A DNA stretch of 64,000 nucleotides, taken from NCBI GenBank assembly GCA_041665345.1, contig JBAYJA010000001.1, positions 9,206 to 73,205 of the forward strand, in the 5' to 3' direction. The position numbers and the translations under genes are program-made. Positions 8,355-22,668 of this stretch are shown one piece after another (positions within the stretch are counted from its first letter, which is position 1; every line of letters begins with the position of its first letter). The DNA is from Patescibacteria group bacterium. GTDB lineage: Bacteria > Patescibacteriota > Patescibacteriia > PEXW01. The notes under the pieces are model-generated. The model was not told where the DNA came from. It made no database searches and was given only the letters and a program-made list of their open reading frames with translations.

Positions 8355-8454
8355 AGGAAGTAATCTTTTCGTTGGCAGTACAGTATTGCATAGGAGGGCA
8401 AAAATGCAATCGTCGCAATGTACGTATTATTGGTTAGATCAAAAAAAAGATAGG

Positions 8455-8483
8455 TTGACATCTCATCCATCTGGTGCTAGAGT
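8455..8483 (+). promoter_or_regulatory. Sigma70-like promoter upstream of the 8507 gene.
   Basis: TTGACA, a 17-nt spacer, then TAGAGT. Confidence 0.3.
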
Positions 8484-8506
8484 GATTTGAAATTACACAA
8501 AAAGTT

Positions 8507-9019: not shown

Positions 9020-9122
9020 AAAGGTCGGCTTTTGGTAATAAAAAAGGCGAACTGGGTAAGCACTTTTTTGTAATCAATTGACTTGCAAGGCATAGAGCAG
9101 GCTGGTAGGATGCAGCTGCTCT

Positions 9123-9851: not shown

Positions 9852-9862
9852 GTTCGTTCTAT

Positions 9863-9897
9863 GGGGCGAGTCGTTATGCGATTCGCCCCCTTTTTTT
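9863..9897 (+). terminator. Intrinsic terminator for the 9123-9851 gene.
   Basis: GGGGCGAGTCG-ttat-GCGATTCGCCCC followed by TTTTTTTT. Confidence 0.6.
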
Positions 9898-9904
9898 GTC
9901 GAAA

Positions 9905-9933
9905 GAAAAAAGGCGAACCGGGGTGGGTTCGCC
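9905..9933 (-). terminator. Intrinsic terminator for the minus-strand gene 9944-10549.
   Basis: GGCGAACC-ggggtg-GGTTCGCC preceded by an A-run on the plus strand, which gives a U-tract on the minus strand. Confidence 0.5.
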
Positions 9934-9943
9934 TGACCATGAT

Positions 9944-10549
9944 TCATGCGTGAAGCATGTTCAAAAGCGTATCATTGAAGGAAACTGCCTGATTGATCAC
10001 GGCCTCGCTTAGACGATAGATCTTCAGTACCTTGCCCTGTAAGTCGTTCAATCCAAAGTCAATGCAGATGTGCGCAACTGAGAAATTCTCAGGGATAGAA
10101 GACTCTTTAACGTTTTGTGGATTTGGTAGCTGTAGATGTTTGTAAATGCCTGCAACAATGTGAGTGGCAAATGACTGAGTGCGTTCGCGTCCATCCACTG
10201 GTATTTGAATGACCGCTTCTTCTGTTTGCTCTTTCGAAGTTTGATGAATGCAGTGAAGCCAGTACACCTTCGGGCTAAAATAGGTGTTGTCCAAGAAATT
10301 CTGGCAGAAATCAGTGTAAGCCCAATGTTTCAGGCGGAGGTCTCGCACCTGAATTTGTGCTGCACTTGGATTAAATTTTCCACGTTGGTCCGCAGCTATG
10401 ACAAACCACAGCCACGGAAAATCACGGATTAATTCATTTACATTCGAAGCATAATACATGTTTCCTCCTGCGCGTCCGCGCTTTGATCCGTCCGGATCTG
10501 GAAGGGGTTGTTTGGTTTTTGCCCAGCTATCTAGCGAGGCAGTTGTCAA
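9944..10549 (-). CDS. Hypothetical protein.
   Basis: ORF track 201 aa. No recognisable motif. Confidence 0.35.
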   Translation of the reverse strand: MTTASLDSWAKTKQPLPDPDGSKRGRAGGNMYYASNVNELIRDFPWLWFVIAADQRGKFNPSAAQIQVRDLRLKHWAYTDFCQNFLDNTYFSPKVYWLHCIHQTSKEQTEEAVIQIPVDGRERTQSFATHIVAGIYKHLQLPNPQNVKESSIPENFSVAHICIDFGLNDLQGKVLKIYRLSEAVINQAVSFNDTLLNMLHA

Positions 10550-10703
10550 AGAATAGTCTAGGTTAGTTTACAGCTCAGTATTTGTCAATGATTGAGAGCA
10601 TTGTTTTTCCATTGCGCGGGCACAGAGACCCGCGCTAGGTTCTTTTGTTGGTCATTCGATCTTTCGGCTTTACGGCGTACGGCTCTACGGCTATCCTTCC
10701 CCC

Positions 10704-11720
10704 ATGGACCTCCTGATTCTTCACGGCGATGACACGTTTTCCTCCCGCCAGCGGCTGCGTACCCTGGTGGCTGGCTTTCAGAAGAAGTACGACCCCACGG
10801 GTGGGAACATTGTTCGGTTTTCCCCGCCGTTTGAGCTGGGGCAGATGCGGAACGCCATTGCTCAAGTGGGGATGTTCGCCAAGAAGCGGCTGGTGGTGTT
10901 GAACGATTTCTTACGCACAGCATCAGTCGCGGACAGCACGCAGTTCAACTCGTGGTTTGCAGACCCCACCGCGTTCCCAGATGCCGTGGTGATTTGCTGG
11001 GAGGGGAAAGATTTGGGAAAGCCCACGGTTCCCAAAAAACCAGCAAAACCCAAGAAGGCTACAGCGAAGAAAGCTCCCCCCAAGGCGCCAACGAAAGTCA
11101 GTTGGCCAGAGCACGCCAAGGTGGAACTCTTCTTACCCTTGGCTGAAGCGCAACTGGCTGGGTGGATTCGGAAAGAAGTGCAGCGCTTGGGTGGGCTCAT
11201 TGAGCCCAATGCAGTGCATTTGCTCATGGCCAATGTTGGGGCTGACCTGTGGCGCTTGTCGAACATCATCGCCCAGTTGGTAGCCGCCGCTGGGAAGGCA
11301 CCCATTGACGTGCACCTTATCAACCAGTGGACCCAAGCTCCGCATGATGACAACATGTTTCACTTTACGGATGCGCTGGCAGCCCGGAACTTACCAGCTG
11401 CACTCAAGCTCATGCACGGGCAAATCCTTTTGGGTGTGCATCCGCTCGTCCTGCACGCCATGCTGGTGCGGCAAATCCGGATTCTGCTGATGGTCGCAGA
11501 CTGCGTGGAACGGGGGAGTGCTCCAGGCGCCATTGCCGAAGAAACTGACCTTCACCCATTCGTGGCACAGAAAGCCGTGGCCGCGGTTCGGCAATTCCCC
11601 AAAGGCCGGTTAGCACAGCTCTTCCAAGACGTAGTGCAGCTGGAAGTCGACATGAAAACCGGGAAGGTAGACCCAGAAATTGGTCTGACACACTTTTTGA
11701 CCAAAGTCTGCGCGGGGTAG
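10704..11720 (+). CDS. holA: DNA polymerase III delta subunit, with a lysine/proline-rich insertion.
   Basis: N-terminal LLILHGDDTFSSRQRL and the overall helical C-terminal domain are typical of HolA. There is a PKKPAKPKKATAKKAPPKAP insert. Confidence 0.6.
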   Translation: MDLLILHGDDTFSSRQRLRTLVAGFQKKYDPTGGNIVRFSPPFELGQMRNAIAQVGMFAKKRLVVLNDFLRTASVADSTQFNSWFADPTAFPDAVVICWEGKDLGKPTVPKKPAKPKKATAKKAPPKAPTKVSWPEHAKVELFLPLAEAQLAGWIRKEVQRLGGLIEPNAVHLLMANVGADLWRLSNIIAQLVAAAGKAPIDVHLINQWTQAPHDDNMFHFTDALAARNLPAALKLMHGQILLGVHPLVLHAMLVRQIRILLMVADCVERGSAPGAIAEETDLHPFVAQKAVAAVRQFPKGRLAQLFQDVVQLEVDMKTGKVDPEIGLTHFLTKVCAG

Positions 11721-12049: not shown

Positions 12050-12206
12050 ACGAAAGTAAAGTGTAAACGTTGAGGTGACTTTTACGCTACCATGGACAAA
12101 AGCCGGGTGCAAGTCTCCGGCTCAGGAAGGCCTTGCTGGCTCGCATCTGCGGCGTATACTTACAGCATAGTTTACCCCCCGTTCTTTTACCCCAAACAGG
12201 AGGCTG

Positions 12207-12476
12207 GTGATGACAGGAAGTTCTCACCCCACAGTCGCGGAGCGTACATTCGCAGACAAATTCATCACTTGCATAGACTGCAAGGAAGAGTTTGCCTTCA
12301 CCGTATCTGCTCAGGAGTACTTTGCCGAAAAAGGTTTCACAGGAGACCCAAAACGATGCCGCACGTGTTACGCTGCGTACAAACAGCAACACCCGAAGGG
12401 AAGCAGCAAAACAATGAAGGGACCATTCACTGTCCCGCCAGGAGGTGAGCACCTTCTGAACCTCGACTTTGAGTAG
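12207..12476 (+). CDS. Zinc-ribbon protein of the zf-trcl type, with two CxxC motifs.
   Basis: CIDCKEEFAFTVSAQEYFAEKGFTGDPKRCRTCY matches the probable zinc-binding zf-trcl pattern (CxxC...F..EKGF...P.RC..C). Confidence 0.5.
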   Translation: MMTGSSHPTVAERTFADKFITCIDCKEEFAFTVSAQEYFAEKGFTGDPKRCRTCYAAYKQQHPKGSSKTMKGPFTVPPGGEHLLNLDFE

Positions 12477-12633
12477 AAGCCTTCCCCACAGCCTTTTGCC
12501 GAGCATTGAAACCCCGCCTTACCGTGGGGTTTTTCTTATAGCTCAACAGCTTTGACGCAAGAAAACCACAGTGGTAAGCTGGCCGCTCAGAAACAGAAAA
12601 AAAGTAAATTTACAATAGAACAAAGGAGAATAC

Positions 12634-14124
12634 ATGTGTGGCATCCTCTACTTACATGACCCATCAAAAAAGATCCCCGGTTTGGTCATGGCGAAACGTG
12701 CGTTTATGGCCTTGGCCATGCAGCAGCACCGTGGATACCAAGGGGGCGGCGTTGGGTATGTTGCTGGTGTTCAGGGTGATCGGAAGCGGGTTTGGCTGGA
12801 TAAATTTTTTGGTCCTGTGTCATCACAGTACGATACGCATGGCGCAAAAAAAAGTCCGCCTGAACCGTTCTGCGATGGACTTGGGAAGATGGTGCATCGG
12901 AATCCCTATAAAGTCATTGGACATGGGCGTTATGCAACCGCCGGACCAGCAGATGACCTCATTCACTACCAACCAAACTTCGTTGAGGATATCATCGACG
13001 GTCGGGTTATTTATGCGGCGAATGGTGACATCCCTCGTTTGGACTTCTACCGTGAAGCCCTAGAAGAAGTTGCTGACGACGTGCCTTCGCAGAATGATGG
13101 CGACTTTACGCTTCGTCAGATTGCGTACTACCGTCGTAAGGAAGGCTTGTCTTGGGTAGCAGCAATGCAACGTTTTATGCAAGAGATTCCGGGCGCATAC
13201 TCGGGCATTTTGATGACGAAGAAGCGGACATTTTTCATGCGGGATCCGCATGGCATTCGACCTTTCCTCGTCGGTCGTACAGAAGATGGCATGATCGTTG
13301 CCGCCTCCGAGTCTTGCGTTTTTCCCATTCTCAAAGCTTCACTTATCTTCGAAGTAGAACGGGGTTCGATTGTAGAAATTACCGATGATGGCACAATGAC
13401 AGTCCATGCTTATCCCGGGGTACTTCCAAAGCATTCAGCTCATTGCGTTGTCTGCCTCGCGTACTTTGCACGCCCAGATAGCCACGTTTTCATTGACGGT
13501 AAGAACCCTGCTGATGTTCACCAGAAAGGATCGTACGCGTATAGATTTGGAGTGGAGCTTGCAGTTGAACATCCAGTAAAAGCAGACTTTGTTGCATCTA
13601 TTCGAAATTCTGGTGATCTAGCCACGAAGGGCTACTCAAAAAGATCTGGCCTACCAGATAAAGAGTTACTCATTCGGAATTTTTCCATTCCCCGCACCTT
13701 CCTAGCTTCAGAGCAGGAAGAGCGAGAATTTATGGTGATGCTCAAGTTTGGCTTAATGACGGACATGTTTCGGGATGCGGACATGCGTCGGGTTTGCCTG
13801 ATTGATGACACGATAATCCGTGCCACTACCATGCGCGGGATTGTCTCATTACTTCGTGCTGGAGGCGCAGAAGAAGTGCACATTCGGACCGCTTTTCCGC
13901 CAATCACGAATCCTTGTTTCATGGGTATTGCCATGCCTACCCGTGCCGAACTTGTTGCTTCCTCACGAACCATTGAAGAAATTAAAGATTTCATTCAAGC
14001 TGACTCCCTGGGGTACCTTTCGATAGATGGCCTCAGTAGAGCTATGGTAGAACGCAATGATAGTTTGCAGAACTATTGCACCGCCTGCTTCACTGGCCAC
14101 TATCCCATTCCAGTAACTGCGTAG
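12634..14124 (+). CDS. purF: Amidophosphoribosyltransferase (glutamine PRPP amidotransferase).
   Basis: N-terminal MCGI (Ntn Cys1), a PRTase motif (the D-rich sequence CLIDDTIIRATT), and C-terminal CxACFTGHYP. Confidence 0.9.
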   Translation: MCGILYLHDPSKKIPGLVMAKRAFMALAMQQHRGYQGGGVGYVAGVQGDRKRVWLDKFFGPVSSQYDTHGAKKSPPEPFCDGLGKMVHRNPYKVIGHGRYATAGPADDLIHYQPNFVEDIIDGRVIYAANGDIPRLDFYREALEEVADDVPSQNDGDFTLRQIAYYRRKEGLSWVAAMQRFMQEIPGAYSGILMTKKRTFFMRDPHGIRPFLVGRTEDGMIVAASESCVFPILKASLIFEVERGSIVEITDDGTMTVHAYPGVLPKHSAHCVVCLAYFARPDSHVFIDGKNPADVHQKGSYAYRFGVELAVEHPVKADFVASIRNSGDLATKGYSKRSGLPDKELLIRNFSIPRTFLASEQEEREFMVMLKFGLMTDMFRDADMRRVCLIDDTIIRATTMRGIVSLLRAGGAEEVHIRTAFPPITNPCFMGIAMPTRAELVASSRTIEEIKDFIQADSLGYLSIDGLSRAMVERNDSLQNYCTACFTGHYPIPVTA

Positions 14125-14218
14125 TACATTTCCACGGCCTCTCCCTTGAGAGGTCGTTTTGTTGCAAAGAAAAACCCGAGATATGGTATCTCGGGTTCGT
14201 ACAAATACTTTCGTCGAG

Positions 14219-14638
14219 TCAATTTTTGTACGTGTACCAGCGTTTGTACATGTCGGCAAATGTTTTGGTAGCCTGTTCCACATTACTCCAATCGTCCTCG
14301 GCGCCATACTTTTCAAAGTAGTCTCGGCTGGCCTTTGCATCACGTTCCACTTCGTAGCACTGGAGTCGCCCGCCGACTGGCATACTCAGCACGCTTGCCG
14401 CCACCAGGGAAGAGAGCACTTCTTCTAGCTCAGCTGAAATCACATGTTTGCCTGAACAATCGAAAGTAATGCCAGCGAACATTTCCGGCCACGTGCCAAC
14501 GAGTTTCCACAGCGCTTCATGCAGATCACGAATGCCAATGCGCTTGGGTCCAGTTTGCTGCTCAGCCCACAGGGTGAGAATGGCCTGAATGTAGTGATAG
14601 GGAAAGAGCTGCTGGTTTGTGGTTTTTTCTGTGGTCAT
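14219..14638 (-). CDS. Hypothetical protein.
   Basis: ORF track 139 aa. No known motif. Confidence 0.3.
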   Translation of the reverse strand: MTTEKTTNQQLFPYHYIQAILTLWAEQQTGPKRIGIRDLHEALWKLVGTWPEMFAGITFDCSGKHVISAELEEVLSSLVAASVLSMPVGGRLQCYEVERDAKASRDYFEKYGAEDDWSNVEQATKTFADMYKRWYTYKN

Positions 14639-14934
14639 GCAACCTCCTCATGGTTTTTTTATTTCTTTCTACTCGAACCCTAGCTAGGGCTGCGCGTCGT
14701 GTCAACGTTTGCCCAAAAAAAAGAAGGCCCGAGCCCCTTTGAGGTATGTGTTTTTGAAGTGAACACAATGTCTCCGGTGCTGCAGGCCAATCCGTGGCTG
14801 ATCGCTCGCGTGGTACTCAAACGTACGATCTTCCTTTTGATAGCTTCAGCCTAGCATGCTTGCAAAACTCCGCAAGTGCCTTGTGAGTTTCAAAAAAATG
14901 CCACCGGTGGGGTTCGGTGGCATATGAGAAGAGC

Positions 14935-15573
14935 TTAGTCTAGTTGTAAATTTGGGAATACGTGCGCAATGAACACGCACACAAGTTTTGGGTCCAGGCG
15001 TTCACCTGCCAGTTTTCGCAACTGCGTGACGGCATCCTTGGGGGTTAATTTCTTTTGGTACGTACGTTGTGAGGTCATGGCGTCAAAGGTGTCAGCTATT
15101 GCCACAATCCGACCGGCGATGGGAATTTCCTTTCCTGCAAGTCCCCGTGGGTAGCCCTGCATGTTGCCAGCGTGATTACCATCCCATGATTCATGGTGGG
15201 AGAAGACACAGTCGTAAATAATTCTTGGGAACTCCACCCCAGATTTTCGAAGGATTTGTTCGCCCTCGTATGGGTGATCTTCAAGATCTCGAATTTGATC
15301 AGTCGTTAGGAATCGATTTGGATTGTCTAAAGTTGTTTCTCCAACGGTGATCTTCCCAATGTCATGTAGCAAGGCGCCAATTCGAATGAACTCGATGTCT
15401 TCTTTCGATAGCTTGAGTTCTAGCTCTCTGTTTGCCGCTAATGCCAATTTGTAGGCAATGACGCTGATTCGCTGCGAATGTCCCTTGGTGTACGGGTGCA
15501 TTCTTTCTAAGGCCGCTACCAGGACTCCTGCAGCAATGAGGATGTGTTCTAAGACGTAGCGTTTCTTTTTCAA
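14935..15573 (-). CDS. HD-GYP domain protein, a putative cyclic-di-GMP phosphodiesterase.
   Basis: HDIGK ... HHESWDGNHAGNMQGYPRGL carry the HD and GYP signatures. Confidence 0.75.
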   Translation of the reverse strand: MKKKRYVLEHILIAAGVLVAALERMHPYTKGHSQRISVIAYKLALAANRELELKLSKEDIEFIRIGALLHDIGKITVGETTLDNPNRFLTTDQIRDLEDHPYEGEQILRKSGVEFPRIIYDCVFSHHESWDGNHAGNMQGYPRGLAGKEIPIAGRIVAIADTFDAMTSQRTYQKKLTPKDAVTQLRKLAGERLDPKLVCVFIAHVFPNLQLD

Positions 15574-15703: not shown

Positions 15704-16405
15704 CTAGATGATGCAGGTTAATTTTTGATCCTTCTGTTTCGCAAGTTGTTGAAGGGCTTCATACAGTGGTGTCAGCTGCAAACACTTGTCCGGAAACGAT
15801 TGTTTCGCAACTTTGCCGTTGATCGTAGCAAGTACCGGCTGTAGTTCTTGTGCGCACTCCTGTTCAAAGTCGGCAAAGAATATTTCTGGCTTCCCGTACT
15901 TCCGAAAAAGGTCAGCGGCGTCTCCTTCGTACCAAACACTCACGCTGATAGTTTCTCCATCAGAAGTTTGCAGCCGCAGGTAGGCATGTTTTTGTACGTC
16001 AAACGGGGATTGAATGTCACTTGTCCACGGAGCAGCAATGAGTGCTTCATACCTACCTAAAGTAAAGGCTTTCGCCGGATCACCGTTTGGTAACACAACC
16101 GCACCATCATATGCCGGCATATATACGAATGATGAAATGCTTAGTCCGATGGCGAGTATGAAGCCGCTACATCCAAAAGCTAGTGTGGCAAGTGAATGAG
16201 ATTCGCCCTTGTCCTCTCGGAGGATGAGCCCTACGACTCCAATCAGGACACCAAGGGCCAAAGGAATTGTCGCCACCATATTCGACACTAACGGCCTGGA
16301 GCCTGGTAGCATGATGAGTGCGGCAATGACGAAACAGAGCGCGGCGAAGGTGTACGTTGGCCAGCGACTTGACCGAAAAAATGAAGCAAGATTGGCAAAG
16401 GACAT
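15704..16405 (-). CDS. Membrane protein with three N-terminal TM helices and a soluble C-terminal domain. It is paralogous to the 38394-39023 protein.
   Basis: Start refined to the ATG at 16405, which follows AGGAGG. It shares the YEKYGNPENF / FRKYGKPEIF C-terminal block with the 38394 protein. Confidence 0.5.
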   Translation of the reverse strand: MSFANLASFFRSSRWPTYTFAALCFVIAALIMLPGSRPLVSNMVATIPLALGVLIGVVGLILREDKGESHSLATLAFGCSGFILAIGLSISSFVYMPAYDGAVVLPNGDPAKAFTLGRYEALIAAPWTSDIQSPFDVQKHAYLRLQTSDGETISVSVWYEGDAADLFRKYGKPEIFFADFEQECAQELQPVLATINGKVAKQSFPDKCLQLTPLYEALQQLAKQKDQKLTCII

Positions 16406-16444
16406 ATTTCCTCCTAATGTTGAGTTTTTGGTTTCATTTTTTAC

Positions 16445-16481
16445 TTTCACGTCAAAGTAGCACCCGGCTGGGGGAGTGTCA
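16445..16481 (-). promoter_or_regulatory. Conserved promoter, copy 2, upstream of the membrane-protein gene.
   Basis: TTGACA-CTCCCCCAGCCGGGTGC-TACTTT on the minus strand, with 35 of 37 positions identical to copy 1. Confidence 0.45.
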
Positions 16482-16498: not shown

Positions 16499-18505
16499 TT
16501 ACCGTCGGCGTTTGCGCGCCTTTATTTTTGTTGGTGGCTGGTTGCCCTTGAGGAGGGTGATTTGATCCCGCAGGTGCGCGGCTTTTTCAAACTGTAAATT
16601 TTGGGCGGCGATTTCCATTTGCTGCTCCAAATCGCGCAGGAGGTGGGGGAGCTCCTCTTTGGGAATGATGCTGGGGTCAAAGTCAGGCCTCTCCGCCTGC
16701 TCTGCCAGTTTCTTTCCGGCCAAGCGAGATTCCTTTATTGCTTTGATGATTGATTGGGGAGTGATGCCATGCGCTTGGTTGTACGCCTCCTGAATTTTGC
16801 GGCGGCGTTCGGTCTCGGCAATGGCGCGCTGCATGGAGCCGGTCATGCGGTCCGCGTACATTATGACTTGGCCTTCCAGGTGTCGCGCAGCGCGACCCAT
16901 GGTTTGCATCAGGGCAGTTTCAGAACGGAGGTAGCCTTCCTTATCTGCATCCAGAATGGCCACCAGGCTCACCTCAGGTAAGTCCAAGCCTTCGCGGAGC
17001 AAGTTAATACCCACGACCACGTCAAATTCACCTGTTCGCAGGCTCCGCAGAATTTCCAAGCGGTCAAAGGTGTCCACGTCTGAGTGCAGGTACTGGACTT
17101 TTATATCCAAGTCTTTCAGGTAATCCGTCAGGTCTTCAGCAATGCGCTTGGTGAGTGTGGTCACCAGCACGCGTTGGTTCTTCTCCGTGCGGAGTTTGAT
17201 TTGCTCCACTAGGTCATCCACCTGATCCTTGGTGGGCTTCACCGTCACTTTGGGATCCAGCAAGCCCGTGGGCCGGATGAGCTGCTCCGCCACCTGCTTG
17301 CTGTGGGTTTTTTCGTACACGGCTGGGGTGGCAGAAACGTAGATGGCTTGGTTGATTTTTTGCTCGAATTCCGGGAAGGTGAGCGGCCGGTTGTCGTAGG
17401 CCGCGGGGAGGCGGAAGCCATAGTCAATCAACGAGGTCTTCCGGGATTTGTCACCTTCGTACATGCCGCCAATTTGCGGCACGGTCATGTGGGACTCGTC
17501 AATGACCAGGAGGAAATCTTTGGGGAAGAAGTCAATGAGCGTGTACGGCGGGGTGCCGGGTTTGCGACCGTCAAAGTACCGCGAGTAGTTTTCAATGCCG
17601 CTGGTGAAACCCGTGGTGCGGATCATCTCAATGTCAAAGCGGGAGCGTTGCTCCATGCGTTCGGCTTCCAGGGGTTTGTCATGCGCCTTGAACCAGGCCA
17701 CGCGCTCTTTGGCGTCACGTTCCATTTGCTTCAGAGCATCCTCGGTGCCGCTGGGATCGGTCACGTACTGCGTCGCAGGGTAAATGTCCACGGTTTCCAT
17801 CATCGATGCATTTTTGCCGGTGAGCGCGTCCACTTCCTCAATCTTCTCCACGGTATCACCAAAGAAGTGCACGCGGATGAGTCGGTCTTCGCTGAAGGTG
17901 GGGAAGATTTCCAGGGTCTCACCCAGGACGCGGAAGGAGCCGCGCCAGAGGTCCATTTGCTTCCGGTCAAACTGCATTTTGATGAGCTTGTCCAAGATTT
18001 TTTTCCGGGGGAGGTTTTGGCCTTGCCGAATAGTGGTCACCCCGCTCTTGTACGACTCGGGTGAACCCAGGCCGTAGATGCAGGACACCGAGGCGACGAT
18101 AATGACATCACGGCGCGAGAGAATGGCCTGGGTGGAGGCGTGGCGGAGCCGGTCAATTTCCTCGTTGATGTTCGTCTCTTTTTCAATGTACGTGTCGGAC
18201 TTGGCAATGTACGCCTCAGGTTGGTAGTAGTCGTAGTAGGAGACGAAGTAGTGCACGGCGTTCTCCGGGAAGAAGTCCGCAAACTCGCTGGCCAGCTGCG
18301 CGGCCAAAGTTTTGTTATGGGAAATGACCAAGGTGGGCCGCTGCACCTGCTGGATGACGTTGGCTATGGTAAAGGTTTTGCCCGAGCCCGTTACACCCAG
18401 CAGGGTTTGGTCGTGGTAGCCTTTTTCCAAGCCAGCAACCAGCTTTTTTATTGCTGCGGGTTGGTCGCCGGTTGGCTTGAAGGGGGAGCGGAGGGTGAAG
18501 GGCAT
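16499..18505 (-). CDS. uvrB: Excinuclease ABC subunit B.
   Basis: MPFTLRSPFKPTGDQP N-terminus, Walker A GVTGSGKT, helicase motifs, and a C-terminal UvrB/UvrC interaction domain. The ORF track start at 18547 extends a few codons upstream. Confidence 0.95.
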   Translation of the reverse strand: MPFTLRSPFKPTGDQPAAIKKLVAGLEKGYHDQTLLGVTGSGKTFTIANVIQQVQRPTLVISHNKTLAAQLASEFADFFPENAVHYFVSYYDYYQPEAYIAKSDTYIEKETNINEEIDRLRHASTQAILSRRDVIIVASVSCIYGLGSPESYKSGVTTIRQGQNLPRKKILDKLIKMQFDRKQMDLWRGSFRVLGETLEIFPTFSEDRLIRVHFFGDTVEKIEEVDALTGKNASMMETVDIYPATQYVTDPSGTEDALKQMERDAKERVAWFKAHDKPLEAERMEQRSRFDIEMIRTTGFTSGIENYSRYFDGRKPGTPPYTLIDFFPKDFLLVIDESHMTVPQIGGMYEGDKSRKTSLIDYGFRLPAAYDNRPLTFPEFEQKINQAIYVSATPAVYEKTHSKQVAEQLIRPTGLLDPKVTVKPTKDQVDDLVEQIKLRTEKNQRVLVTTLTKRIAEDLTDYLKDLDIKVQYLHSDVDTFDRLEILRSLRTGEFDVVVGINLLREGLDLPEVSLVAILDADKEGYLRSETALMQTMGRAARHLEGQVIMYADRMTGSMQRAIAETERRRKIQEAYNQAHGITPQSIIKAIKESRLAGKKLAEQAERPDFDPSIIPKEELPHLLRDLEQQMEIAAQNLQFEKAAHLRDQITLLKGNQPPTKIKARKRRR

Positions 18506-18551
18506 ATGGAGTTCACTGAGTATACCTGTGACCACCCATTGTCTCAAGCAT

Positions 18552-18578
18552 GAAAAAGCCGCTCACATGGGTGAGCGG
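18552..18578 (-). terminator. Intrinsic terminator ending the GHKL operon.
   Basis: GCCGCTCAC-atgg-GTGAGCGGC with a U-tract on the minus strand. Confidence 0.5.
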
Positions 18579-18591
18579 CTTGAAGGTGCAA

Positions 18592-20208
18592 TTACATAAA
18601 CGGAGTAAAGTACTGCAGGAAAGAATTCTCAAAAACCTTCAGAAAGTGTTCTCGGACATTTGCGTTGTCCTCGGAGAGGGCTGTTAATTCTTTCACAATG
18701 TGCAGTTGGACATACTCCTGGAGCGTCTTCGTACCCGCCGTGTCAGCTCGGATCCAATCTTCATGACTAAGATTGAAAATGAGTATTCCACCCTGAATGC
18801 GGGTTCTCCATTTAAAACCCGTTTTCTCGGTAGCTTCCTCGTACGTAACCGTGAGGCCAAATTGACCTTGGATCAAATGGCGCGGTCGCCCACTTGGATG
18901 CTTCACAGAACTGTGTGGAAGTTTCGTGCGTTCTTGCGTCGGCGACGAGTGCTTTCGATCTTGGTTCTGCGTTTTTCGACGTTCCCGAACTTCTGCAATA
19001 GTGGGCAGGGTTCGGAAGCGTTCGGGGGTTCGTTCACCGGCGCTGGCAGCAGTGTGATTACTGGATACCAGACCGACCAATTGATGGAGCCTACCTTGCA
19101 AGCTAAGCTGTGGGTGCTCTTTGAAGAATTTATCCAGCTGTTCAACAGTGCCACGGATAATGTCCGCATACTTTTTGAACCGACTGGTGTCCTTCAGTTC
19201 TTCCAAGTACAGAATCAGCGATTCCTCTTGGTAGGTAAGAATCGCCTCTGCCAGGGCATCATATAGCTCATCTTCAGCCATGCGTGAACGATCACTCACA
19301 AGGTTCCCCCAATTAATTCGGAAGTACCCTTGGAAGTGTCCGCTGCCAAGAATTGCCCGCGCGTCCTTCCATAAACCTCGCATGTTCTGCAGGTCAAAAG
19401 GCCAGTTGTTGCACTCCACAATGAGTTTTGGACTTTTAACCGGCTGGATTGTTGTGTAGAGTTCGATGTCGACATCCCCAAAGGTTGTCTTGATCGTTTC
19501 CACTTTTTGCTTGGTCCCAGGAAACTCTCGGGCTTTTGCCTGTACACGCTGGGGCTCCTCCCGGTTCGCAGAAAAAAGGATTTGAATCACCACATTTCGT
19601 CTCCGAATCGCTGTGGCAAATTTCTCACCCACTGTATCCGCAATTTCCTGGATATCCTGCAGTTCACGTATGGCGCTGGAACTCAGGCCTTTCAGCAGTA
19701 CTCTGGTTGTCGCCTTGAATTTTACGTACTCATGATTAACACCAAAACCCGGCTCCTCATGAACGAAACCCATCTTTGGTGCTTCATTTTCACGAAGCTC
19801 GGATTTCTTCAGCTTCATGGTGAAGTAGCCACTGCCTTTGATTTTCAACGGCCGAGTGGTGAAGTTGTATTCCTCAGCGATGCTTAGGCCGGCCAGTTTT
19901 GCAATACCTTTCTGACCAATTTTGTCTGCACGTCCACGCTTGGTTGACGTACCTACATTTGACCACAGGTTTTGCATTTCCTGAAAGGTCGTCCCATAAC
20001 CATCATCGAAGGCTAGGAGGGTTTCCTTGGCCTTATTGATGCTGATGAGAATTCGAGTGGCTCCTTCATCCACGGCATTCTGCACCAGTTCAACGATGAC
20101 ATCTTCAGCACTCTTGTGCGCATGCGCCAACTCCCAGAGTACATTGCCGGTATGCACATGGATGCCGAAAGTTCCTGTGCGTTGCTGCGGGTTGGTTTTA
20201 GTTACCAT
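18592..20208 (-). CDS. GHKL (Bergerat-fold) ATPase, MORC/HSP90-like HATPase_c_3-type. It is the last gene of a four-gene operon.
   Basis: N-box ELVQNAVDEGATRI, G1 box FDDGYG, G2-like IGQKGIAKLAGLS. It lacks the MutL DQHA endonuclease motif. A 350-aa C-terminal region is unassigned. Confidence 0.6.
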   Translation of the reverse strand: MVTKTNPQQRTGTFGIHVHTGNVLWELAHAHKSAEDVIVELVQNAVDEGATRILISINKAKETLLAFDDGYGTTFQEMQNLWSNVGTSTKRGRADKIGQKGIAKLAGLSIAEEYNFTTRPLKIKGSGYFTMKLKKSELRENEAPKMGFVHEEPGFGVNHEYVKFKATTRVLLKGLSSSAIRELQDIQEIADTVGEKFATAIRRRNVVIQILFSANREEPQRVQAKAREFPGTKQKVETIKTTFGDVDIELYTTIQPVKSPKLIVECNNWPFDLQNMRGLWKDARAILGSGHFQGYFRINWGNLVSDRSRMAEDELYDALAEAILTYQEESLILYLEELKDTSRFKKYADIIRGTVEQLDKFFKEHPQLSLQGRLHQLVGLVSSNHTAASAGERTPERFRTLPTIAEVRERRKTQNQDRKHSSPTQERTKLPHSSVKHPSGRPRHLIQGQFGLTVTYEEATEKTGFKWRTRIQGGILIFNLSHEDWIRADTAGTKTLQEYVQLHIVKELTALSEDNANVREHFLKVFENSFLQYFTPFM

Positions 20209-20725
20209 GCGTTCCTCCTTGGAGCTTTTCTAGTTCTCCATCTTCAAGGAGTTTCTGCAACGTCGTTTCAGAAGAAAGTGCCCGAGTGGCCACAGAAAGT
20301 TGGAAGAGTTGATCCGATCCAACTTTTTTCCGGATGGCAGCCCGAAGGCGCCCAGCCGGTGACGTGACAATTGCAATGAGATCTGGCAGAATTGCCGGAA
20401 TCAGGTGACCCACCCGATCCGCAGCAACATCCATACTATCTATTTTTCCAGGCTGCTCTTCAATCGGTGAAGCTAGGAGTTTCTGCTTCACTTCCTTGGT
20501 TAAGAAACCTTGGAAAAGTTCATGGGGTATGAGCTTGTAGAGCGCATCCCGGTGCACCATTTTTGACGGTACCGTTATCCCATGCCACCAGTCATACACA
20601 GTGGCTCGCGGGAAACCAAAGCGGGCTGCAAATTCTACCAAAGATGAGATCCCTTTACTTTCCGCGAAGTTTCGAAGGAGTTGGCTGCAGAGTGTGACCC
20701 GCTGCTGCTTCGCTGTCTCTTTCAT
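20198..20725 (-). CDS. Hypothetical protein with an N-terminal XRE-like HTH. Its stop overlaps the GHKL gene start by 11 nt.
   Basis: GISSLVEFAARFGFPRATVYDWWHG resembles an HTH. It is translationally coupled to its neighbours. Confidence 0.4.
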   Translation of the reverse strand: MKETAKQQRVTLCSQLLRNFAESKGISSLVEFAARFGFPRATVYDWWHGITVPSKMVHRDALYKLIPHELFQGFLTKEVKQKLLASPIEEQPGKIDSMDVAADRVGHLIPAILPDLIAIVTSPAGRLRAAIRKKVGSDQLFQLSVATRALSSETTLQKLLEDGELEKLQGGTHGN

Positions 20726-20728
20726 GGC

Positions 20729-21589
20729 CTACCCTCTTTTCTTTAATTGATGTTTTTTGCCCCAGCGGTAAAGACGCGAGAGCTGTGACTGATGCACGTT
20801 CTTTCCCGTTAGCTCAAGAATGACTCTCTGGAGGTCTGGCCAGGAGTACGTTTTCTTGAGTTTCAGAATGAGGTTCGCCAACGTCATGCCGCGTTTTTCC
20901 AGAGTGATGTCGTTTGCGTCTTTGAGTTTACCAGTCGCGAAAGGATATGCTGCAGTTTTGGCGACATCCCTTTTGGAATGGTGGCGTTTCGGTGACTGAT
21001 TGGTGTTGTCAACTGGGATGGATAAAAATTTCATCCAGTTGCTGAGGGTGCGTTGTGCATTCTTGCGTTTCAGCAGCTTTGGGTACTTCCGGCTGAGGGC
21101 CAGCGCGGCTTTTCCCTGGGAACCCTTCTTAGCGTACATGTCCGAAATGATTTTTCGGGCAGCAGCTTCGCCACCAACCGCATCGCAAAACGTTTTCAGA
21201 TTGCCAACGAGCGTTTTGGATTCCTTCGATGGTGCAGGCGGCATGGCCTGTGGGGTAGGCGGTTTCTTGGTTTCTCCCCGTGGGGTCACATCTTGAATGG
21301 GCCAGCCAAAGGTGCGGGCGGAGACAACAATCCAAACGGCAAATTGGCGCGCAGCCTCAATGAGCTTGAGCGCCAGCTCGCCAGTAGTGCCTTTGCCCAG
21401 CTGTTCAGTAACAACTCCTGCGTTCAGACTGAGGATAGCTTTCGTTACCACTCTCGATCGATCAGCTTGCGCTAAGAAACCGAGGAGTTGCGGATGCTTT
21501 TTGAGGTATGCCAGCCACTCGTTGTCGGTGAGCTGTTCATTCTTCACCAGGTGAAGTTGCTGCATTAATAGGGTTACATATTCATTCAT
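20729..21589 (-). CDS. Hypothetical protein with a C-terminal HTH-like segment.
   Basis: C-terminal SWPDLQRVILELTGKNVHQSQLSRLYRWGKK resembles transposase/Psq-type HTH domains. There is a 4-nt gap to the next gene. Confidence 0.35.
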   Translation of the reverse strand: MNEYVTLLMQQLHLVKNEQLTDNEWLAYLKKHPQLLGFLAQADRSRVVTKAILSLNAGVVTEQLGKGTTGELALKLIEAARQFAVWIVVSARTFGWPIQDVTPRGETKKPPTPQAMPPAPSKESKTLVGNLKTFCDAVGGEAAARKIISDMYAKKGSQGKAALALSRKYPKLLKRKNAQRTLSNWMKFLSIPVDNTNQSPKRHHSKRDVAKTAAYPFATGKLKDANDITLEKRGMTLANLILKLKKTYSWPDLQRVILELTGKNVHQSQLSRLYRWGKKHQLKKRG

Positions 21590-21600
21590 GATTCATGTCC

Positions 21601-21834
21601 TTACTTCTTTTGGCAGATAGCGTTGAACGCCTCTACACCGTAATCACGTTTAATGGTCGCCAGCCAGCGAGTGGCTTTGGCGAGCGTGGAATCACCGGTA
21701 ATTTGCTTGGCCAGGTCGAATGCGGCCGTAGGGCTGCTCGTCTCCTGCACAATGCGAACAAGATCATCACGTGCGAGCGCAATGCTTGCCCGTGCTGTGA
21801 GCTCGCCTAAAGGGCGAGGTGGATTTCTCCTCAT
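21601..21834 (-). CDS. Small hypothetical protein (77 aa), the first gene of the operon.
   Basis: ORF track. It has a possible HTH-like segment AAFDLAKQITGDSTLAKATRWLA. Its stop is 11 nt upstream of the next start. Confidence 0.35.
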   Translation of the reverse strand: MRRNPPRPLGELTARASIALARDDLVRIVQETSSPTAAFDLAKQITGDSTLAKATRWLATIKRDYGVEAFNAICQKK

Positions 21835-21921
21835 AGCGTGGGTCTCTCTTTCTCCGTTTTGTCAACGGGCTTGGTTTTCCTATGCTGTTCTCGTTTCGTC
21901 TTTGAGAAACAACATCCAGAC

Positions 21922-21950
21922 ACCTTATGGGAAAACTCTGGGGCTGTCAA
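21922..21950 (-). promoter_or_regulatory. Sigma70-like promoter for the four-gene operon. It overlaps a divergent promoter for 22024.
   Basis: The minus strand reads TTGACA-17 nt-TAAGGT. The plus strand has TTGACA-16 nt-TACGCT nearby. Confidence 0.35.
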
Positions 21951-22023
21951 TGTTGCTTGACAAAGTCCATATTTGTGGTACGCTCACGGACTAAAAATAC
22001 AAACTCAAAACCGCGGAGGATGA

Positions 22024-22668
22024 GTGTTCGATCTCACCGCATATTTGCTCCTTCCAGATTGGCAGTTTGTCATCATCATCAATCAGCTCGTAGAGTTGCC
22101 TTTTTGGAGGATTGTCATGAGCCAGATCCTGGGGGTGCCAGATTGGTGCATCGTGTATCCTGCAGTCGTCCTTCATTCTGGTTTGTGGCTCACATTGAAA
22201 ATTAGCCTCGTGCATGGGGTAACCGTCATTGTGCAAAAGCAGAAGGCACGACGCCAGCATCGGCTTGCAGAAAGCCAAATGGTTGGAGTTTGGCCGCCGA
22301 CCTTACCCCGACGCATTTTTCAGATGTCTGGACGCGCACTCAAATACCTCACTCATCAGATGTATGAGGGTGCTCGGCAAATGGCTCATGGGAAAGTCGT
22401 TACGCCAGTTTTTCTGCTCTGGTTGGCAGCGGTGCCATTTATGCAAAAGGTCGGCATAGCCATTGTGGGGATAAGTTGGATCAGATTTGGTTGGCGTGGC
22501 GCTGTCGCACTTTTCTTTGGAACAGTGTTGCAAGTGGTTCCTTTTTGCTTCCTCTATACCCTCTATGGGAAGGAGACCGCAGAACGGTTCATCATGTGGG
22601 CAATGATTTCTCTGGGCATCATCATGCTGTTTGGCTGGTTGCGGAAGAATGGAAGACGTTCCTTATGA
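22024..22668 (+). CDS. Hypothetical multi-pass membrane protein.
   Basis: Several hydrophobic helices, for example VFLLWLAAVPFM and MISLGIIMLFGWL. Confidence 0.4.
   Translation: MFDLTAYLLLPDWQFVIIINQLVELPFWRIVMSQILGVPDWCIVYPAVVLHSGLWLTLKISLVHGVTVIVQKQKARRQHRLAESQMVGVWPPTLPRRIFQMSGRALKYLTHQMYEGARQMAHGKVVTPVFLLWLAAVPFMQKVGIAIVGISWIRFGWRGAVALFFGTVLQVVPFCFLYTLYGKETAERFIMWAMISLGIIMLFGWLRKNGRRSL

What the first reader, a model, noticed from the sequence alone, without database searches (positions are those of the whole stretch)
18552..21950. Four-gene operon ending in a MORC/HSP90-like GHKL ATPase, with three small HTH-like proteins: candidate uncharacterised system
Four minus-strand genes (21601-21834, 20729-21589, 20198-20725, 18592-20208) are packed with gaps of 11 nt, 4 nt and an 11-nt overlap, which implies translational coupling. 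They share a single TTGACA-17-TAAGGT promoter and a terminator hairpin. The last gene has a clear Bergerat-fold ATPase: N-box ELVQNAVDEGATRI, G1 FDDGYG and G2 IGQKGIAKLAG. It lacks the MutL endonuclease motif, no mutS is present, and its 350-aa C-terminal half is unassignable. The three upstream proteins have no recognisable enzymatic motifs but carry HTH-like segments. The locus sits between core genes uvrB and ruvA. Standalone GHKL ATPases coupled to small partner proteins have been described in anti-phage and other conflict systems, but I cannot place this gene set in any described family.
Basis: partly seen in the sequence, partly recalled or inferred. Interest (0 to 1): 0.75.

Follow-up and report, generated by a model that had tools for sequence, protein, structure and literature searches.

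The report
Accessory MORC-like ATPase cassette in CPR bacteria
A 3.4-kb four-gene operon in a Patescibacteria (CPR) genome pairs a MORC/SMCHD1/Hsp90-type ATPase with small DNA-binding-type partners; it is missing from the same site in close relatives, matches no described system, and is therefore a credible new candidate conflict or defence module of these ultra-small bacteria.

Summary

It is not MutL, not a histidine kinase and not a PADLOC system. An exhaustive search finds a full-length family (88 representatives at E<=1e-30). Every named member comes from Patescibacteria/Parcubacteria MAGs. The invariant core is an Xre-type HTH protein translationally coupled to the ATPase. The 286-aa and 77-aa genes occur only in closer lineages.

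The cassette is accessory. Relatives with 78-85% identical UvrB have an empty site or a different cargo at the same spot. Cassette proteins are only 24-41% identical where neighbouring genes are 52-79%. Cassette phylogeny does not follow the locus.

Best reading (about 0.45): a horizontally exchanged, DNA-directed conflict/defence module with an ATP-driven clamp recruited by HTH partners. No effector domain was found, and the function is untested.

The parts
21922..21950 (-). Promoter of the cassette: -35 TTGACA (21950-21945), 17-nt spacer, -10 TAAGGT (21927-21922)
   Evidence: Read directly. The same TTGACA-N17-TA[AG]G[GT]T arrangement is conserved at the left end of the insert in L014 and L024. 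Most other cassettes also have a perfect TTGACA -35 box. The -10 is weak, so the consensus scanner did not list the site.
21944..21963 (-). Inverted repeat TTGTCAA-N6-TTGACAG spanning two back-to-back promoters; candidate operator
   Evidence: The left half-site TTGTCAA is shared with empty-site relatives and reads as the -35 of the divergent membrane-protein/ruvA promoter. The right half is the cassette's own -35. The operator role is inference only.
21835..21921 (-). 5' leader containing a short imperfect palindrome (GTTTC...GAAAC)
   Evidence: Clearer palindromes sit at the same position in L014, L024, L006 and L017. Function unknown.
21601..21834 (-). g1: 77-aa basic (pI 10.0) helical protein with the motif A-x-RWLA-x-x-RRDYG. 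Accessory subunit found only in the closest lineages.
   Evidence: Orthologues at 41-50% identity occur in L005, L006, L014 and L025. It is absent from L009, L013, L016, L017, L019 and L026. No Pfam, PDB, PHROG or PADLOC match.
20729..21589 (-). g2: 286-aa very basic protein (pI 10.3). Conserved N-terminal helical domain (YLxxHPxL ... LAxWLVxAG), a Pro/Lys-rich linker, then two HTH-like modules.
   Evidence: Alignment A9. Orthologues or paralogues occur in L005, L006, L014, L025, L009 and L013. Only sub-threshold HTH_21/32/33 Pfam hits. No PDB match.
20198..20725 (-). g3: 175-aa Xre-type HTH protein (HTH at about residues 15-50, nt 20576-20683) with a conserved C-terminal helical domain (RALSSE motif). 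Invariant partner of the ATPase.
   Evidence: The profile matches the Xre HTH of PDB 2kpj at E = 0.007. Pfam HTH_28, HTH_26 and Phage_CI_repr hits are weak. Homologues lie immediately upstream of g4 in all 11 loci examined. The g3 and g4 genes overlap in 9 of the 11.
19684..20208 (-). g4 residues 1-175: GHKL (Bergerat-fold) ATP-binding domain with complete motifs I-IV
   Evidence: Pfam HATPase_c_3 at E = 2e-11. The PDB profile search hits MutL at 2.5e-9, and MORC2 and Hsp90 at about 4e-8. Motif conservation is given. The AF2 model has pLDDT above 90 here.
19273..19683 (-). g4 residues 176-312: transducer / S5-like middle domain, with conserved G231, SG290xFxG294 and R307 (candidate phosphate-sensing basic residue)
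18883..19272 (-). g4 residues 313-442: a helix of about 50 residues (acidic, pI 4.5), then a poorly conserved, low-confidence, highly basic linker (pI 11.7)
   Evidence: AF2 secondary structure and pLDDT. Charge analysis. Alignment occupancy and conservation.
18592..18882 (-). g4 residues 443-538 plus the stop codon: conserved C-terminal alpha/beta domain (G451, W467, G474, invariant N479, H482) of unknown function
18553..18581 (-). Intrinsic terminator closing the operon
   Evidence: (-22.3 kcal/mol, z = -6.15). The sequence is identical in four independent assemblies.
18488..21956 (.). Extent of the inserted or accessory segment relative to the empty site of the closest relative, L022 (UvrB 85% identical)
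   Evidence: blastn of L022 against the window loses homology between window positions 21957 and 18487. About 100 bp in L022 is replaced by about 3.47 kb here (junction alignments).

Best explanation
The region is a self-contained accessory operon. It has been exchanged horizontally among Patescibacteria (CPR) genomes and sits in a variable hotspot between the ruvA-side membrane-protein gene and uvrB.

Its conserved core is a two-protein machine. One part is an Xre-type HTH protein (g3). The other is a MORC/SMCHD1/Hsp90-class GHKL ATPase (g4) whose translation is coupled to g3. In the window's lineage two further very basic proteins are added: g2, with HTH-like modules, and g1.

Proposed mechanism (inferred). 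The HTH partners recognise DNA and also autoregulate the operon through palindromes at the promoter and leader. They recruit g4. Like other GHKL-plus-transducer ATPases, g4 dimerises through its N-terminal domains on binding ATP, with a second contact through the long helix and the C-terminal domain. The resulting clamp entraps or compacts the bound DNA. In this way it would silence or block replication of foreign DNA such as phage, plasmids or other mobile elements. It would therefore be a conflict/defence system that works by DNA entrapment or silencing, not through a recognisable nuclease.

Shown: operon structure, fold, intact ATPase motifs, conserved partnership, accessory and mobile distribution.
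Inferred: DNA targeting by the partners, clamp action, defence role.
For: Operon. The genes are tightly packed, and g3 and g4 overlap with an internal Shine-Dalgarno sequence. There is one promoter and one strong terminator.

ATPase. The ATP-binding and hydrolysis residues are 94-100% conserved across 89 family members.

Family. The exhaustive profile search finds 88 full-length representatives at E<=1e-30. All named members come from Patescibacteria, Parcubacteria or Vogelbacteria MAGs.

Partnership. A g3 homologue lies directly upstream of g4 in all 11 loci and overlaps it in 9 of them. g2 is present in 7 loci and g1 in 5.

DNA-binding character. g3 has an Xre HTH. g1 to g3 have pI 9.3-10.3, and the g4 linker has pI 11.7.

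Accessory and mobile.
- L022 and L023 (UvrB 85% and 78% identical) have empty sites.
- L024 carries a different cargo at the same site.
- L014 and L023 are 82-85% identical in flanking DNA but differ by a 7.1-kb indel that contains the cassette.
- Window versus L014: UvrB 77%, NTP-transferase 79% and FemAB 52% identical, against g4 33%, g3 31% and g2 24%.
- L014 g4 is closest (55%) to L006 g4, which sits at an unrelated locus.
- One distant member lies among DpdB-like, Cas4-like and IS110-like genes.

Precedent. Prokaryotic MORC and paraMORC GHKL proteins are components of restriction and defence systems (PMC2292703). GHKL-Shedu is an experimentally validated defence protein (PMC12137116).
Against: - No effector domain (nuclease, methylase, TIR, helicase) is detectable in any of the four proteins.
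- There is no hit to any complete PADLOC system.
- No relative was found in IMG/VR or in GenBank phages, so there is no link to phage counter-defence or to phage carriage.
- Most neighbourhoods are housekeeping genes, not defence islands.
- The cassette carries no recombinase, and no direct repeats mark the junctions.
- HTH evidence for g2 is sub-threshold, and g1 has none.
- The physical g3-g4 interaction, DNA binding and clamp action are all inferred.
- Fast divergence plus presence/absence polymorphism also fits a selfish or addiction module.
Confidence: 0.45

Rival explanations
1. Selfish addiction or abortive module of the toxin-antitoxin type. The Xre-HTH protein g3 would be an antitoxin and autorepressor that neutralises a growth-arresting GHKL ATPase, g4. 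The cassette would persist and spread because losing it is costly, not because it defends the host.
For: - The two-gene core, an Xre HTH protein overlapping a larger enzyme, has the canonical type II TA layout.
- Two g3 homologues give weak hits to the Xre-MbcA-ParS antitoxin middle domain (E = 0.046).
- Palindromes at the promoter and leader suggest autoregulation.
- The cassette shows presence/absence polymorphism, fast divergence and horizontal transfer.
- CapK/CapS-like GHKL-regulator pairs have been co-opted into TA systems (PMC13373217).
Against: - GHKL-plus-transducer ATPases of the MORC, MutL or Hsp90 type are not known toxins.
- The 540-aa multi-domain ATPase, with up to three partners, is far larger than typical TA pairs.
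- The antitoxin-domain hits are not significant.
- Many TA-like modules are defence systems anyway, so this reading partly overlaps the best explanation.
Confidence: 0.17
2. Accessory DNA-repair, recombination or chromosome-organisation factor. A MutL/topoisomerase/SMCHD1-like DNA clamp, guided by HTH proteins, would work together with neighbouring repair genes.
For: - Repair and recombination genes recur next to the cassette: uvrB and ruvA (window, L005, L014, L025), ruvC-yebC-ruvB (L026), a UvrD/PD-(D/E)xK helicase-nuclease (L013), a PD-(D/E)xK nuclease (L016), gyrA three genes away (L019), and a DEAD helicase and SSB (L006).
- A distant rhizobial plasmid relative lies beside a DEAD/DEAH helicase.
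- The fold is shared with MutL and type II topoisomerase ATPase modules.
Against: - uvrB and ruvA flank the site in relatives that lack the cassette, so that adjacency belongs to the hotspot.
- The cassette is dispensable in close relatives.
- It diverges far faster than repair genes.
- There is no MutL C-terminal domain and no Toprim or nuclease partner.
- Other loci lie between tRNA-synthetase genes or among unrelated genes.
- CPR genomes are dense in housekeeping genes, so adjacency is weak evidence.
Confidence: 0.15
3. Transcription-regulatory module. The GHKL protein would act as a kinase or switch on its HTH partners, in the manner of an anti-sigma factor kinase or the CapK/CapS pair, to control its own or adjacent genes.
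For: - The ATPase is paired with DNA-binding-type proteins.
- Sigma-70-family and sigma-54-activator-like genes lie directly upstream of the cassette in L013 and L005, and a sigma-70 gene occupies the same hotspot in L024.
- CapK/CapS is a precedent for a GHKL protein plus a DNA-binding repressor (PMC13373217).
Against: - There is no HisKA, DHp or STAS domain.
- The suspected similarity between the g2 N-terminal domain and the sigma-factor N-terminal extensions was not supported by hhalign (probability 0.5%).
- The window's cassette ends in a terminator with no downstream operon of its own.
Confidence: 0.06
4. Specialised Hsp90-like chaperone that acts on its co-encoded client or co-chaperone proteins.
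For: The Foldseek top hits are Hsp90, GRP94 and TRAP1 (E about 1e-14, TM about 0.43). NCBIfam gives a weak HSP90-family hit. Phage RIIA and Hsp90-like proteins are structural neighbours.
Against: - The score against the NCBIfam HSP90 model is 24.9 bits against a cut-off of 455.
- There is no Hsp90 C-terminal dimerisation domain.
- The partners are basic and HTH-type, so they look like DNA binders, not clients.
- The accessory, horizontally transferred distribution is atypical for a chaperone.
Confidence: 0.04

Closest known systems
Prokaryotic MORC / paraMORC GHKL ATPases of restriction-modification and defence systems (Iyer, Abhiman & Aravind 2008, PMC2292703)
   Same: - N-terminal GHKL domain with all four ATP motifs, followed by an S5-type transducer domain and a family-specific C-terminal extension.
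- Sporadic, laterally transferred distribution.
- Function predicted to be manipulation of DNA superstructure in a conflict context.
- The nearest sequence models are of this class: BbrUII/HgiDII restriction enzyme N-terminus at 1e-11 and Pfam HATPase_c_3.
   Different: - The operon has no SF-II helicase, methylase or restriction-fold nuclease.
- The partners are instead an Xre-HTH protein and two novel basic proteins.
- I could not find the MORC-specific GhXhhpXXRhl motif by inspection.
- The C-terminal domain matches none of the described paraMORC extensions (RecB-like nuclease, TIR, HxH).
- The family appears restricted to Patescibacteria.
Eukaryotic SMCHD1 and MORC2/MORC3 ATPase modules (PDB 6mw7, 5of9, 5ix1)
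   Different: - Sequence identity is only 12-16%.
- There is no CW, hinge or other chromatin-reader domain.
- Recruitment here would be through separately encoded HTH proteins.
- The host is bacterial and the gene set is an accessory operon.
MutL (DNA mismatch repair)
   Different: - Scores are 12-26 bits against NCBIfam MutL cut-offs of 180-840.
- There is no MutL C-terminal dimerisation or endonuclease domain and no DQHA(X)2E(X)4E motif.
- It is accessory, not core.
- None of the cassettes has a mutS partner.
GHKL-containing defence proteins: Tiamat TmtA (PADLOC) and GHKL-Shedu VcSduA (PMC12137116)
   Same: They have an N-terminal GHKL ATPase of the same broad class. TmtA models match residues 28-102 at E down to 2e-9. 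They are accessory, defence-type genes.
   Different: - TmtA models are 1300-1780 residues long, and only about 75 residues match.
- Shedu is defined by a C-terminal DUF4263 PD-(D/E)xK nuclease, which is absent here.
- Both are single-gene systems without HTH partners.
CapK/CapS regulatory pair (PMC13373217) and Xre-type antitoxin modules (ParS/MbcA)
   Same: The organisational logic is the same: a GHKL-superfamily protein encoded next to a DNA-binding regulator, or an Xre-HTH protein overlapping a larger partner enzyme.
   Different: - The antitoxin-domain hits for g3 are not significant.

Membership tests
GHKL ATPase superfamily (Bergerat fold) | Motifs I-IV: ExxxNxxD, DxGxG, GxxGxG and a conserved Thr | tested here: met
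   Pfam HATPase_c_3 scores 44.5 bits against a cut-off of 25. E40, N44, D47, D68, G70, G72, G98, G101 and T168 are 83-100% conserved in 89 homologues.
GHKL + transducer class (MutL / MORC / Hsp90 / topoisomerase II ATPase modules) | An S5-like second domain packed on the GHKL domain that supplies a basic residue to the active site | tested here: met
   [not shown]
MutL | Score above the curated MutL family thresholds | tested here: not met
   The NCBIfam MutL models give 12-26 bits against cut-offs of 180-840.
MutL | C-terminal dimerisation/endonuclease domain with DQHA(X)2E(X)4E | tested here: not met
   The motif is absent. The C-terminal-domain profile has no PDB match at all. The full-length profile matches MutL only at residues 28-120.
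MutL | Works with MutS; core gene with stable vertical inheritance | tested here: not met
   No mutS lies in or next to any of the 11 cassettes. Close relatives have empty sites. Whether mutS occurs elsewhere in the genome was not tested.
MORC family sensu Iyer et al. 2008 | GhXhhpXXRhl signature in the S5 domain | tested here: inconclusive
   The family consensus SGxFxGxIxxxFCxLxxxRxxF has no G with an R at +8. This was checked by eye only, because no MORC reference alignment was available.
MORC / paraMORC restriction-modification systems | Conserved operon partners: SF-II helicase, DNA methylase, and restriction-fold, HNH or Vsr nuclease | tested here: not met
   g1 to g3 have no such domains. 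Helicases near some loci (uvrB, UvrD-like, DEAD) lie outside the cassette, and uvrB is also present at empty sites.
paraMORC1-5 | Family-specific C-terminal extension (RecB-like E-D-ExK nuclease, TIR, or HxH domain) | tested here: not met
   No PD-(D/E)xK or TIR Pfam hit. The conserved residues of the C-terminal domain are G451, W467, G474, N479 and H482, with no HxH or ExK motif. No paraMORC models were available for a direct test.
Hsp90 / HtpG | Family threshold and a C-terminal dimerisation domain | tested here: not met
   NCBIfam HSP90 scores 24.9 bits against a cut-off of 455. The Foldseek similarity (E about 1e-14, TM about 0.43) covers the N-terminal and middle domains only.
Sensor histidine kinase / anti-sigma kinase (including CapK) | HisKA/DHp domain or a small SpoIIAB-like kinase; STAS or response-regulator partner | tested here: not met
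   [not shown]
Tiamat (TmtA), PADLOC | Full-length match to the 1300-1780-residue TmtA models | tested here: not met
   Only residues 28-102 match, to model positions about 50-140.
Shedu type I-D (GHKL-DUF4263) | C-terminal DUF4263 PD-(D/E)xK nuclease domain | tested here: not met
   No DUF4263 hit in Pfam or PADLOC. The definition is taken from PMC12137116.
BbrUII/HgiDII restriction enzyme (NCBIfam NF050001) | Equivalog threshold of 550 bits | tested here: not met
   44 bits, covering residues 34-181 only.
Xre-family HTH regulators (for g3) | Cro/C1-type helix-turn-helix domain | tested here: inconclusive
   The profile matches PDB 2kpj at E = 0.007 with a convincing alignment. Pfam HTH_28, HTH_26, HTH_31 and Phage_CI_repr hits are all below the gathering thresholds.
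Anti-phage defence system (generic) | Experimentally demonstrated protection against phage | not testable with these tools
   Only indirect evidence is available: accessory distribution at a hotspot, fast divergence and horizontal transfer.

The most novel reading that the evidence does not exclude
The cassette is a nuclease-free immune or silencing system specific to CPR bacteria. Sequence-reading HTH subunits would load a MORC/SMCHD1-like ATP-driven clamp onto invading or integrated foreign DNA and silence it by entrapment or compaction. That would make it a bacterial functional analogue, and possibly an evolutionary relative, of eukaryotic MORC/SMCHD1 transposon silencing.
Probability: 0.2. 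Interest if true: 0.85.

Novelty: new variant of a known kind. Interest (0 to 1): 0.62.

Why it matters
Patescibacteria (CPR) are a large share of bacterial diversity. They have genomes of about 1 Mb and few recognisable defence systems, and almost no genetics is available for them. Here is a family-sized, horizontally exchanged operon (88 or more representative clusters) that no defence or domain database captures beyond a generic ATPase domain. That makes it a concrete, testable candidate for how these organisms handle foreign DNA.

The ATPase is structurally closest to SMCHD1 and the MORCs, which silence transposons in eukaryotes. Its only partners are small proteins of DNA-binding type. 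If it acts without a nuclease, it would extend the MORC and paraMORC story from restriction-system accessories to stand-alone DNA silencing in bacteria. It would also offer a small, tractable model for loading of GHKL clamps.

The work also defines a variable hotspot, between the ruvA-side membrane-protein gene and uvrB, in one CPR clade. That hotspot can be mined for further cargo.

Tried and rejected
- **Word-indexed homology search.** The search with g4 alone and then with the 89-sequence profile returned only 3-4 proteins. The exhaustive profile search was needed to see the family.
- **Collection scans.** Scans of GTDB species representatives and IMG/VR with A1-derived patterns found nothing. 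A final single-protein scan recovered one GTDB MAG.
- **First AF2 run.** With three sequences it was useless (pLDDT 43.8). It was superseded by the 89-sequence run.
- **afdb50 fold library.** Not available.
- **g2 and sigma factors.** The idea that the g2 N-terminal domain (YLxxHPxL) is shared with the N-terminal extensions of the neighbouring sigma-70 proteins in L013 and L024 was rejected by hhalign (probability 0.5%).
- **L003 and L004 context.** The apparent different downstream gene is a gene-calling artefact at contig ends. The DNA is identical to the window.
- **Phage and plasmid records.** No phage hit. The only plasmid hits are distant rhizobial, Burkholderia and Campylobacter ATP-binding proteins covering the N-terminal half (26% identity). 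One of these lies beside a DEAD/DEAH helicase and IS elements.
- **g1.** No signal in Pfam, PDB, PHROGs or PADLOC.
- **Literature.** Searches found no description of this gene set.

Full report

Yes.

In the overlap, an AAGGAGG Shine-Dalgarno sequence for g4 lies inside the end of g3.

Upstream of g1 lies TTGACA (21950-21945), a 17-nt spacer and TAAGGT (21927-21922). The -10 is weak, and the generic scanner did not report the site. However, the same arrangement is conserved in relatives.

Downstream of g4 there is an 11-bp G+C-rich hairpin followed by a U-run at about 18553-18581. Its folding energy is -22.3 kcal/mol with z = -6.15.

Four independent assemblies carry the identical locus. The longest contig is 1.08 Mb, and the source is labelled a Patescibacteria-group MAG.

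**2. What the proteins are**

g4 passes the Pfam threshold for HATPase_c_3. All other library hits cover only the first 70-180 residues. They are MutL, HSP90, the sacsin N-terminal domain, the BbrUII/HgiDII restriction enzyme, PADLOC TmtA and phrog_6203. All fall far below the family thresholds.

The word-indexed protein search found only two homologues. An exhaustive profile search of 1.84 billion representatives showed a real family. It has 1020 hits at E<=1e-3, 372 at E<=1e-10 and 88 at E<=1e-30. Nearly all of the best hits are 510-590 aa long and match end to end.

An AlphaFold model built on an 89-sequence alignment is confident (pLDDT 88.4, pTM 0.80). Its layout is:

| Residues | Element |
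|---|---|
| 1-175 | GHKL domain |
| 176-312 | Transducer domain |
| 314-364 | Long helix |
| about 371-442 | Low-confidence, highly basic linker |
| 443-538 | Compact alpha/beta C-terminal domain |

Foldseek puts the Hsp90s first (about 1e-14) and SMCHD1 at 1e-12. Among viral models the neighbours are RIIA-like and Hsp90-like proteins.

The ATP-binding and hydrolysis residues are 83-100% conserved across the family, so the ATPase is very probably active.

g3 is an Xre-type HTH protein. Its profile matches PDB 2kpj at E = 0.007, and several Pfam HTH hits fall below threshold. It also has a conserved C-terminal helical domain.

g2 has a conserved N-terminal helical domain, a Pro/Lys-rich linker and two HTH-like modules that do not reach significance.

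g1 matches nothing.

All four proteins are basic, with pI 9.2-10.3.

**3. Conservation of the gene set**

I examined eleven loci that carry a g4 homologue.
- The full four-gene cassette occurs in the window, L005, L006, L014 and L025.
- g2-g3-g4 without g1 occurs in L009 and in L013, where extra g2-like paralogues and a sigma-70 gene lie upstream.
- More distant members keep only a g3-like gene directly upstream of g4, alone or with unrelated small ORFs (L016, L017, L019, L026).

In 9 of the 11 loci g3 and g4 overlap. The invariant core is therefore the pair of HTH protein and GHKL ATPase, probably made in fixed stoichiometry. g2 and g1 are lineage-specific additions.

Every member with an organism name is from Patescibacteria, Parcubacteria or Vogelbacteria. 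None was found in IMG/VR or GenBank phages. Only distant N-terminal-half relatives occur on proteobacterial plasmids.

**4. The cassette is accessory and mobile**

This is the main new result. I searched with the window's UvrB to find close relatives and inspected their loci.
- L022 (UvrB 85% identical) and L023 (78%) have the membrane-protein gene directly next to uvrB, separated by only about 100-150 bp. These are empty sites.
- L024 (78%) has a different cargo at the same place: an HNH-repeat protein, a ParB-like protein and a sigma-70-family protein.
- L014, L025 and L005 carry the cassette there.

L014 and L023 are collinear and 82-85% identical in DNA on both sides. They differ by a 7.1-kb segment in L014 that contains the cassette plus two other genes. 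Against L022, the window's extra segment runs from about 18488 to 21956.

The cassette proteins are also much more diverged than their neighbours. Window versus L014:

| Protein | Identity |
|---|---|
| UvrB | 77% |
| NTP-transferase | 79% |
| FemAB | 52% |
| g1 | 41% |
| g4 | 33% |
| g3 | 31% |
| g2 | 24% |

The g4 tree does not follow the locus. L014 g4 is closest (55%) to L006 g4, which lies in an unrelated neighbourhood. The window's g4 is closest (40%) to that of L013, which is also elsewhere.

No recombinase or target-site duplication is visible. Exchange by homologous recombination through the conserved flanking genes is the simplest inference.

One distant locus (L016) sits among DpdB/DndB-like, Cas4-like and IS110-like genes. 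Most other neighbourhoods are housekeeping genes.

**5. How it most likely works**

These points are shown:
- It is a single operon.
- It encodes an intact GHKL-plus-transducer ATPase of the MORC/SMCHD1/MutL/Hsp90 class.
- It has an obligatory HTH partner.
- All its components are basic.
- It is an accessory element with horizontally exchanged distribution.

The mechanism is inferred from the established behaviour of this ATPase class, namely ATP-driven N-terminal dimerisation that closes a clamp around DNA or a client. In this model the HTH proteins select DNA and recruit g4. The same HTH proteins may also autoregulate through the TTGTCAA-N6-TTGACA inverted repeat and the leader palindromes. 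g4 then entraps or compacts the DNA.

Together with the population-genetic signature, the most likely role is a conflict or defence function against phage or other mobile DNA. I give this about 0.45.

The main weaknesses are the lack of any recognisable effector domain, the mostly housekeeping neighbourhoods and the absence of any experiment.

The rivals are:
- a TA-like addiction module in which g3 is the antitoxin (0.17);
- an accessory repair, recombination or chromosome-organisation factor, suggested by recurring ruv, uvr, helicase and nuclease neighbours (0.15). This is undercut because uvrB and ruvA also flank empty sites;
- a regulatory kinase or switch like CapK/CapS (0.06), which the fold contradicts;
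- an Hsp90-like chaperone (0.04).

**6. Comparison with known systems**

In function and architecture, the closest described things are the prokaryotic MORC and paraMORC ATPases of restriction-modification systems (PMC2292703) and, structurally, the eukaryotic SMCHD1 and MORC ATPase modules.

Membership fails for each named family I tested.
- MutL: thresholds are not met, and there is no C-terminal endonuclease domain and no MutS partner.
- Hsp90: the threshold is not met.
- Histidine or anti-sigma kinases: both the fold and the domain content differ.
- Tiamat TmtA: only about 75 residues match.
- GHKL-Shedu: there is no DUF4263 domain.
- BbrUII/HgiDII: 44 bits against a cut-off of 550.
- MORC/paraMORC operons: their defining helicase, methylase and nuclease partners are absent. 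I could not find the MORC S5-domain signature by inspection, and I treat that point as inconclusive.

Literature searches found no description of this gene set.

**7. Verdict**

This is a previously undescribed accessory operon family that appears to be restricted to CPR bacteria. It is built around an HTH protein plus a MORC-like GHKL ATPase and sits in a variable genomic hotspot.

I rate it a new variant of a known kind, namely GHKL/paraMORC-type conflict systems. Interest is 0.62. The most novel reading still open is nuclease-free silencing of foreign DNA by an HTH-loaded MORC-like clamp. I give that reading a probability of 0.2 and an interest of 0.85 if true.

Noticed in passing
window 21957-22023 and 18488-18552; L022:745-896; L023:9903-10000; L024:5261-9930; L014:6242-13348: The intergenic space between the ruvA-side membrane-protein gene and uvrB is a variable hotspot in this CPR clade. 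It is empty in L022 and L023. It holds the GHKL cassette in the window, L014, L025 and L005. In L024 it holds a different cargo: a 374-aa HNH_repeat protein, a 351-aa ParB_N/HTH_ParB protein and a 507-aa sigma-70-family protein.
   Followed up: partly
window 21922-21963; L014:6285-6345; L024:5273-5345: The window, L014 and L024 share the same left-end sequence: TTGTCAA-N6/7-TTGACA-N17-TA[AG]G[GT]T followed by a short palindrome. L024 carries a different cargo, so one promoter and leader module precedes different gene sets. The TTGTCAA half-site also exists at empty sites, where it reads as the -35 of the divergent membrane-protein/ruvA promoter.
   Followed up: partly
L009:1029-1259, 5176-5439, 7722-10333, 12383-13324: Next to the L009 cassette lie two small beta-grasp/ubiquitin-like ORFs, one of which ends in ...GNGRG. 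There are also two SPFH/Band-7-like paralogues and a 313-aa ORF with an HSHP...SAGD motif that resembles JAB/MPN deubiquitinases by eye. This may be a separate ubiquitin-like conjugation or defence cluster. None of these has a PADLOC hit.
   Followed up: partly
L016:5552-6406, 10175-11518, 12113-13276, 13587-15047: A distant cassette (P0026) is flanked by two Cas4-like PD-(D/E)xK proteins, a DpdB/DndB-like protein (PADLOC DpdB at 9e-12) and an IS110-family transposase-like protein. This is the only defence-island-like neighbourhood seen.
   Followed up: partly
L013:5768-8656: In the Parcubacteria locus the g2-like gene is expanded. There are three paralogues of 151, 320 and 205 aa, interleaved with a 433-aa sigma-70-family protein that has a 150-residue N-terminal extension. 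hhalign did not support homology between that extension and the g2 N-terminal domain.
   Followed up: yes
L014:9672-9720 and 13300-13345: A 17-nt direct repeat, TGGCCGGGGTGTTTTTT, forms the 3' half of the terminator after g4. It recurs just upstream of uvrB and brackets the two extra genes of the L014 insert (a 358-aa secreted protein and a 769-aa PEGA/beta-propeller protein). This may be a footprint of a secondary insertion.
   Followed up: no
L005:7275-8216: A sigma-54-activator-type AAA+ protein with an HTH_8 domain (313 aa) and no receiver or sensor domain lies directly upstream of the cassette in L005, preceded by a GH77 amylomaltase. Both are absent from the window's version of the hotspot.
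   Followed up: no
L021 (NZ_CP021826.1 92170-96922): A distant relative on a conjugative Sinorhizobium meliloti plasmid (26% identity over g4 residues 13-304) is a 586-aa 'ATP-binding protein'. It is divergently paired with an 842-aa DEAD/DEAH helicase and flanked by IS91 and IS21 transposases and an integrase. This is the classical MORC/paraMORC-helicase context.
   Followed up: partly
window 14219-14638 (-), 15704-16450 (-), 22024-22668 (+): Several neighbouring window ORFs have no family assignment on record: a 139-aa protein, a 248-aa membrane protein and the 214-aa multi-pass membrane protein that borders the hotspot. The membrane protein is conserved next to ruvA in relatives at 30-40% identity, and its L014 and L023 copies are 87% identical to each other.
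   Followed up: partly
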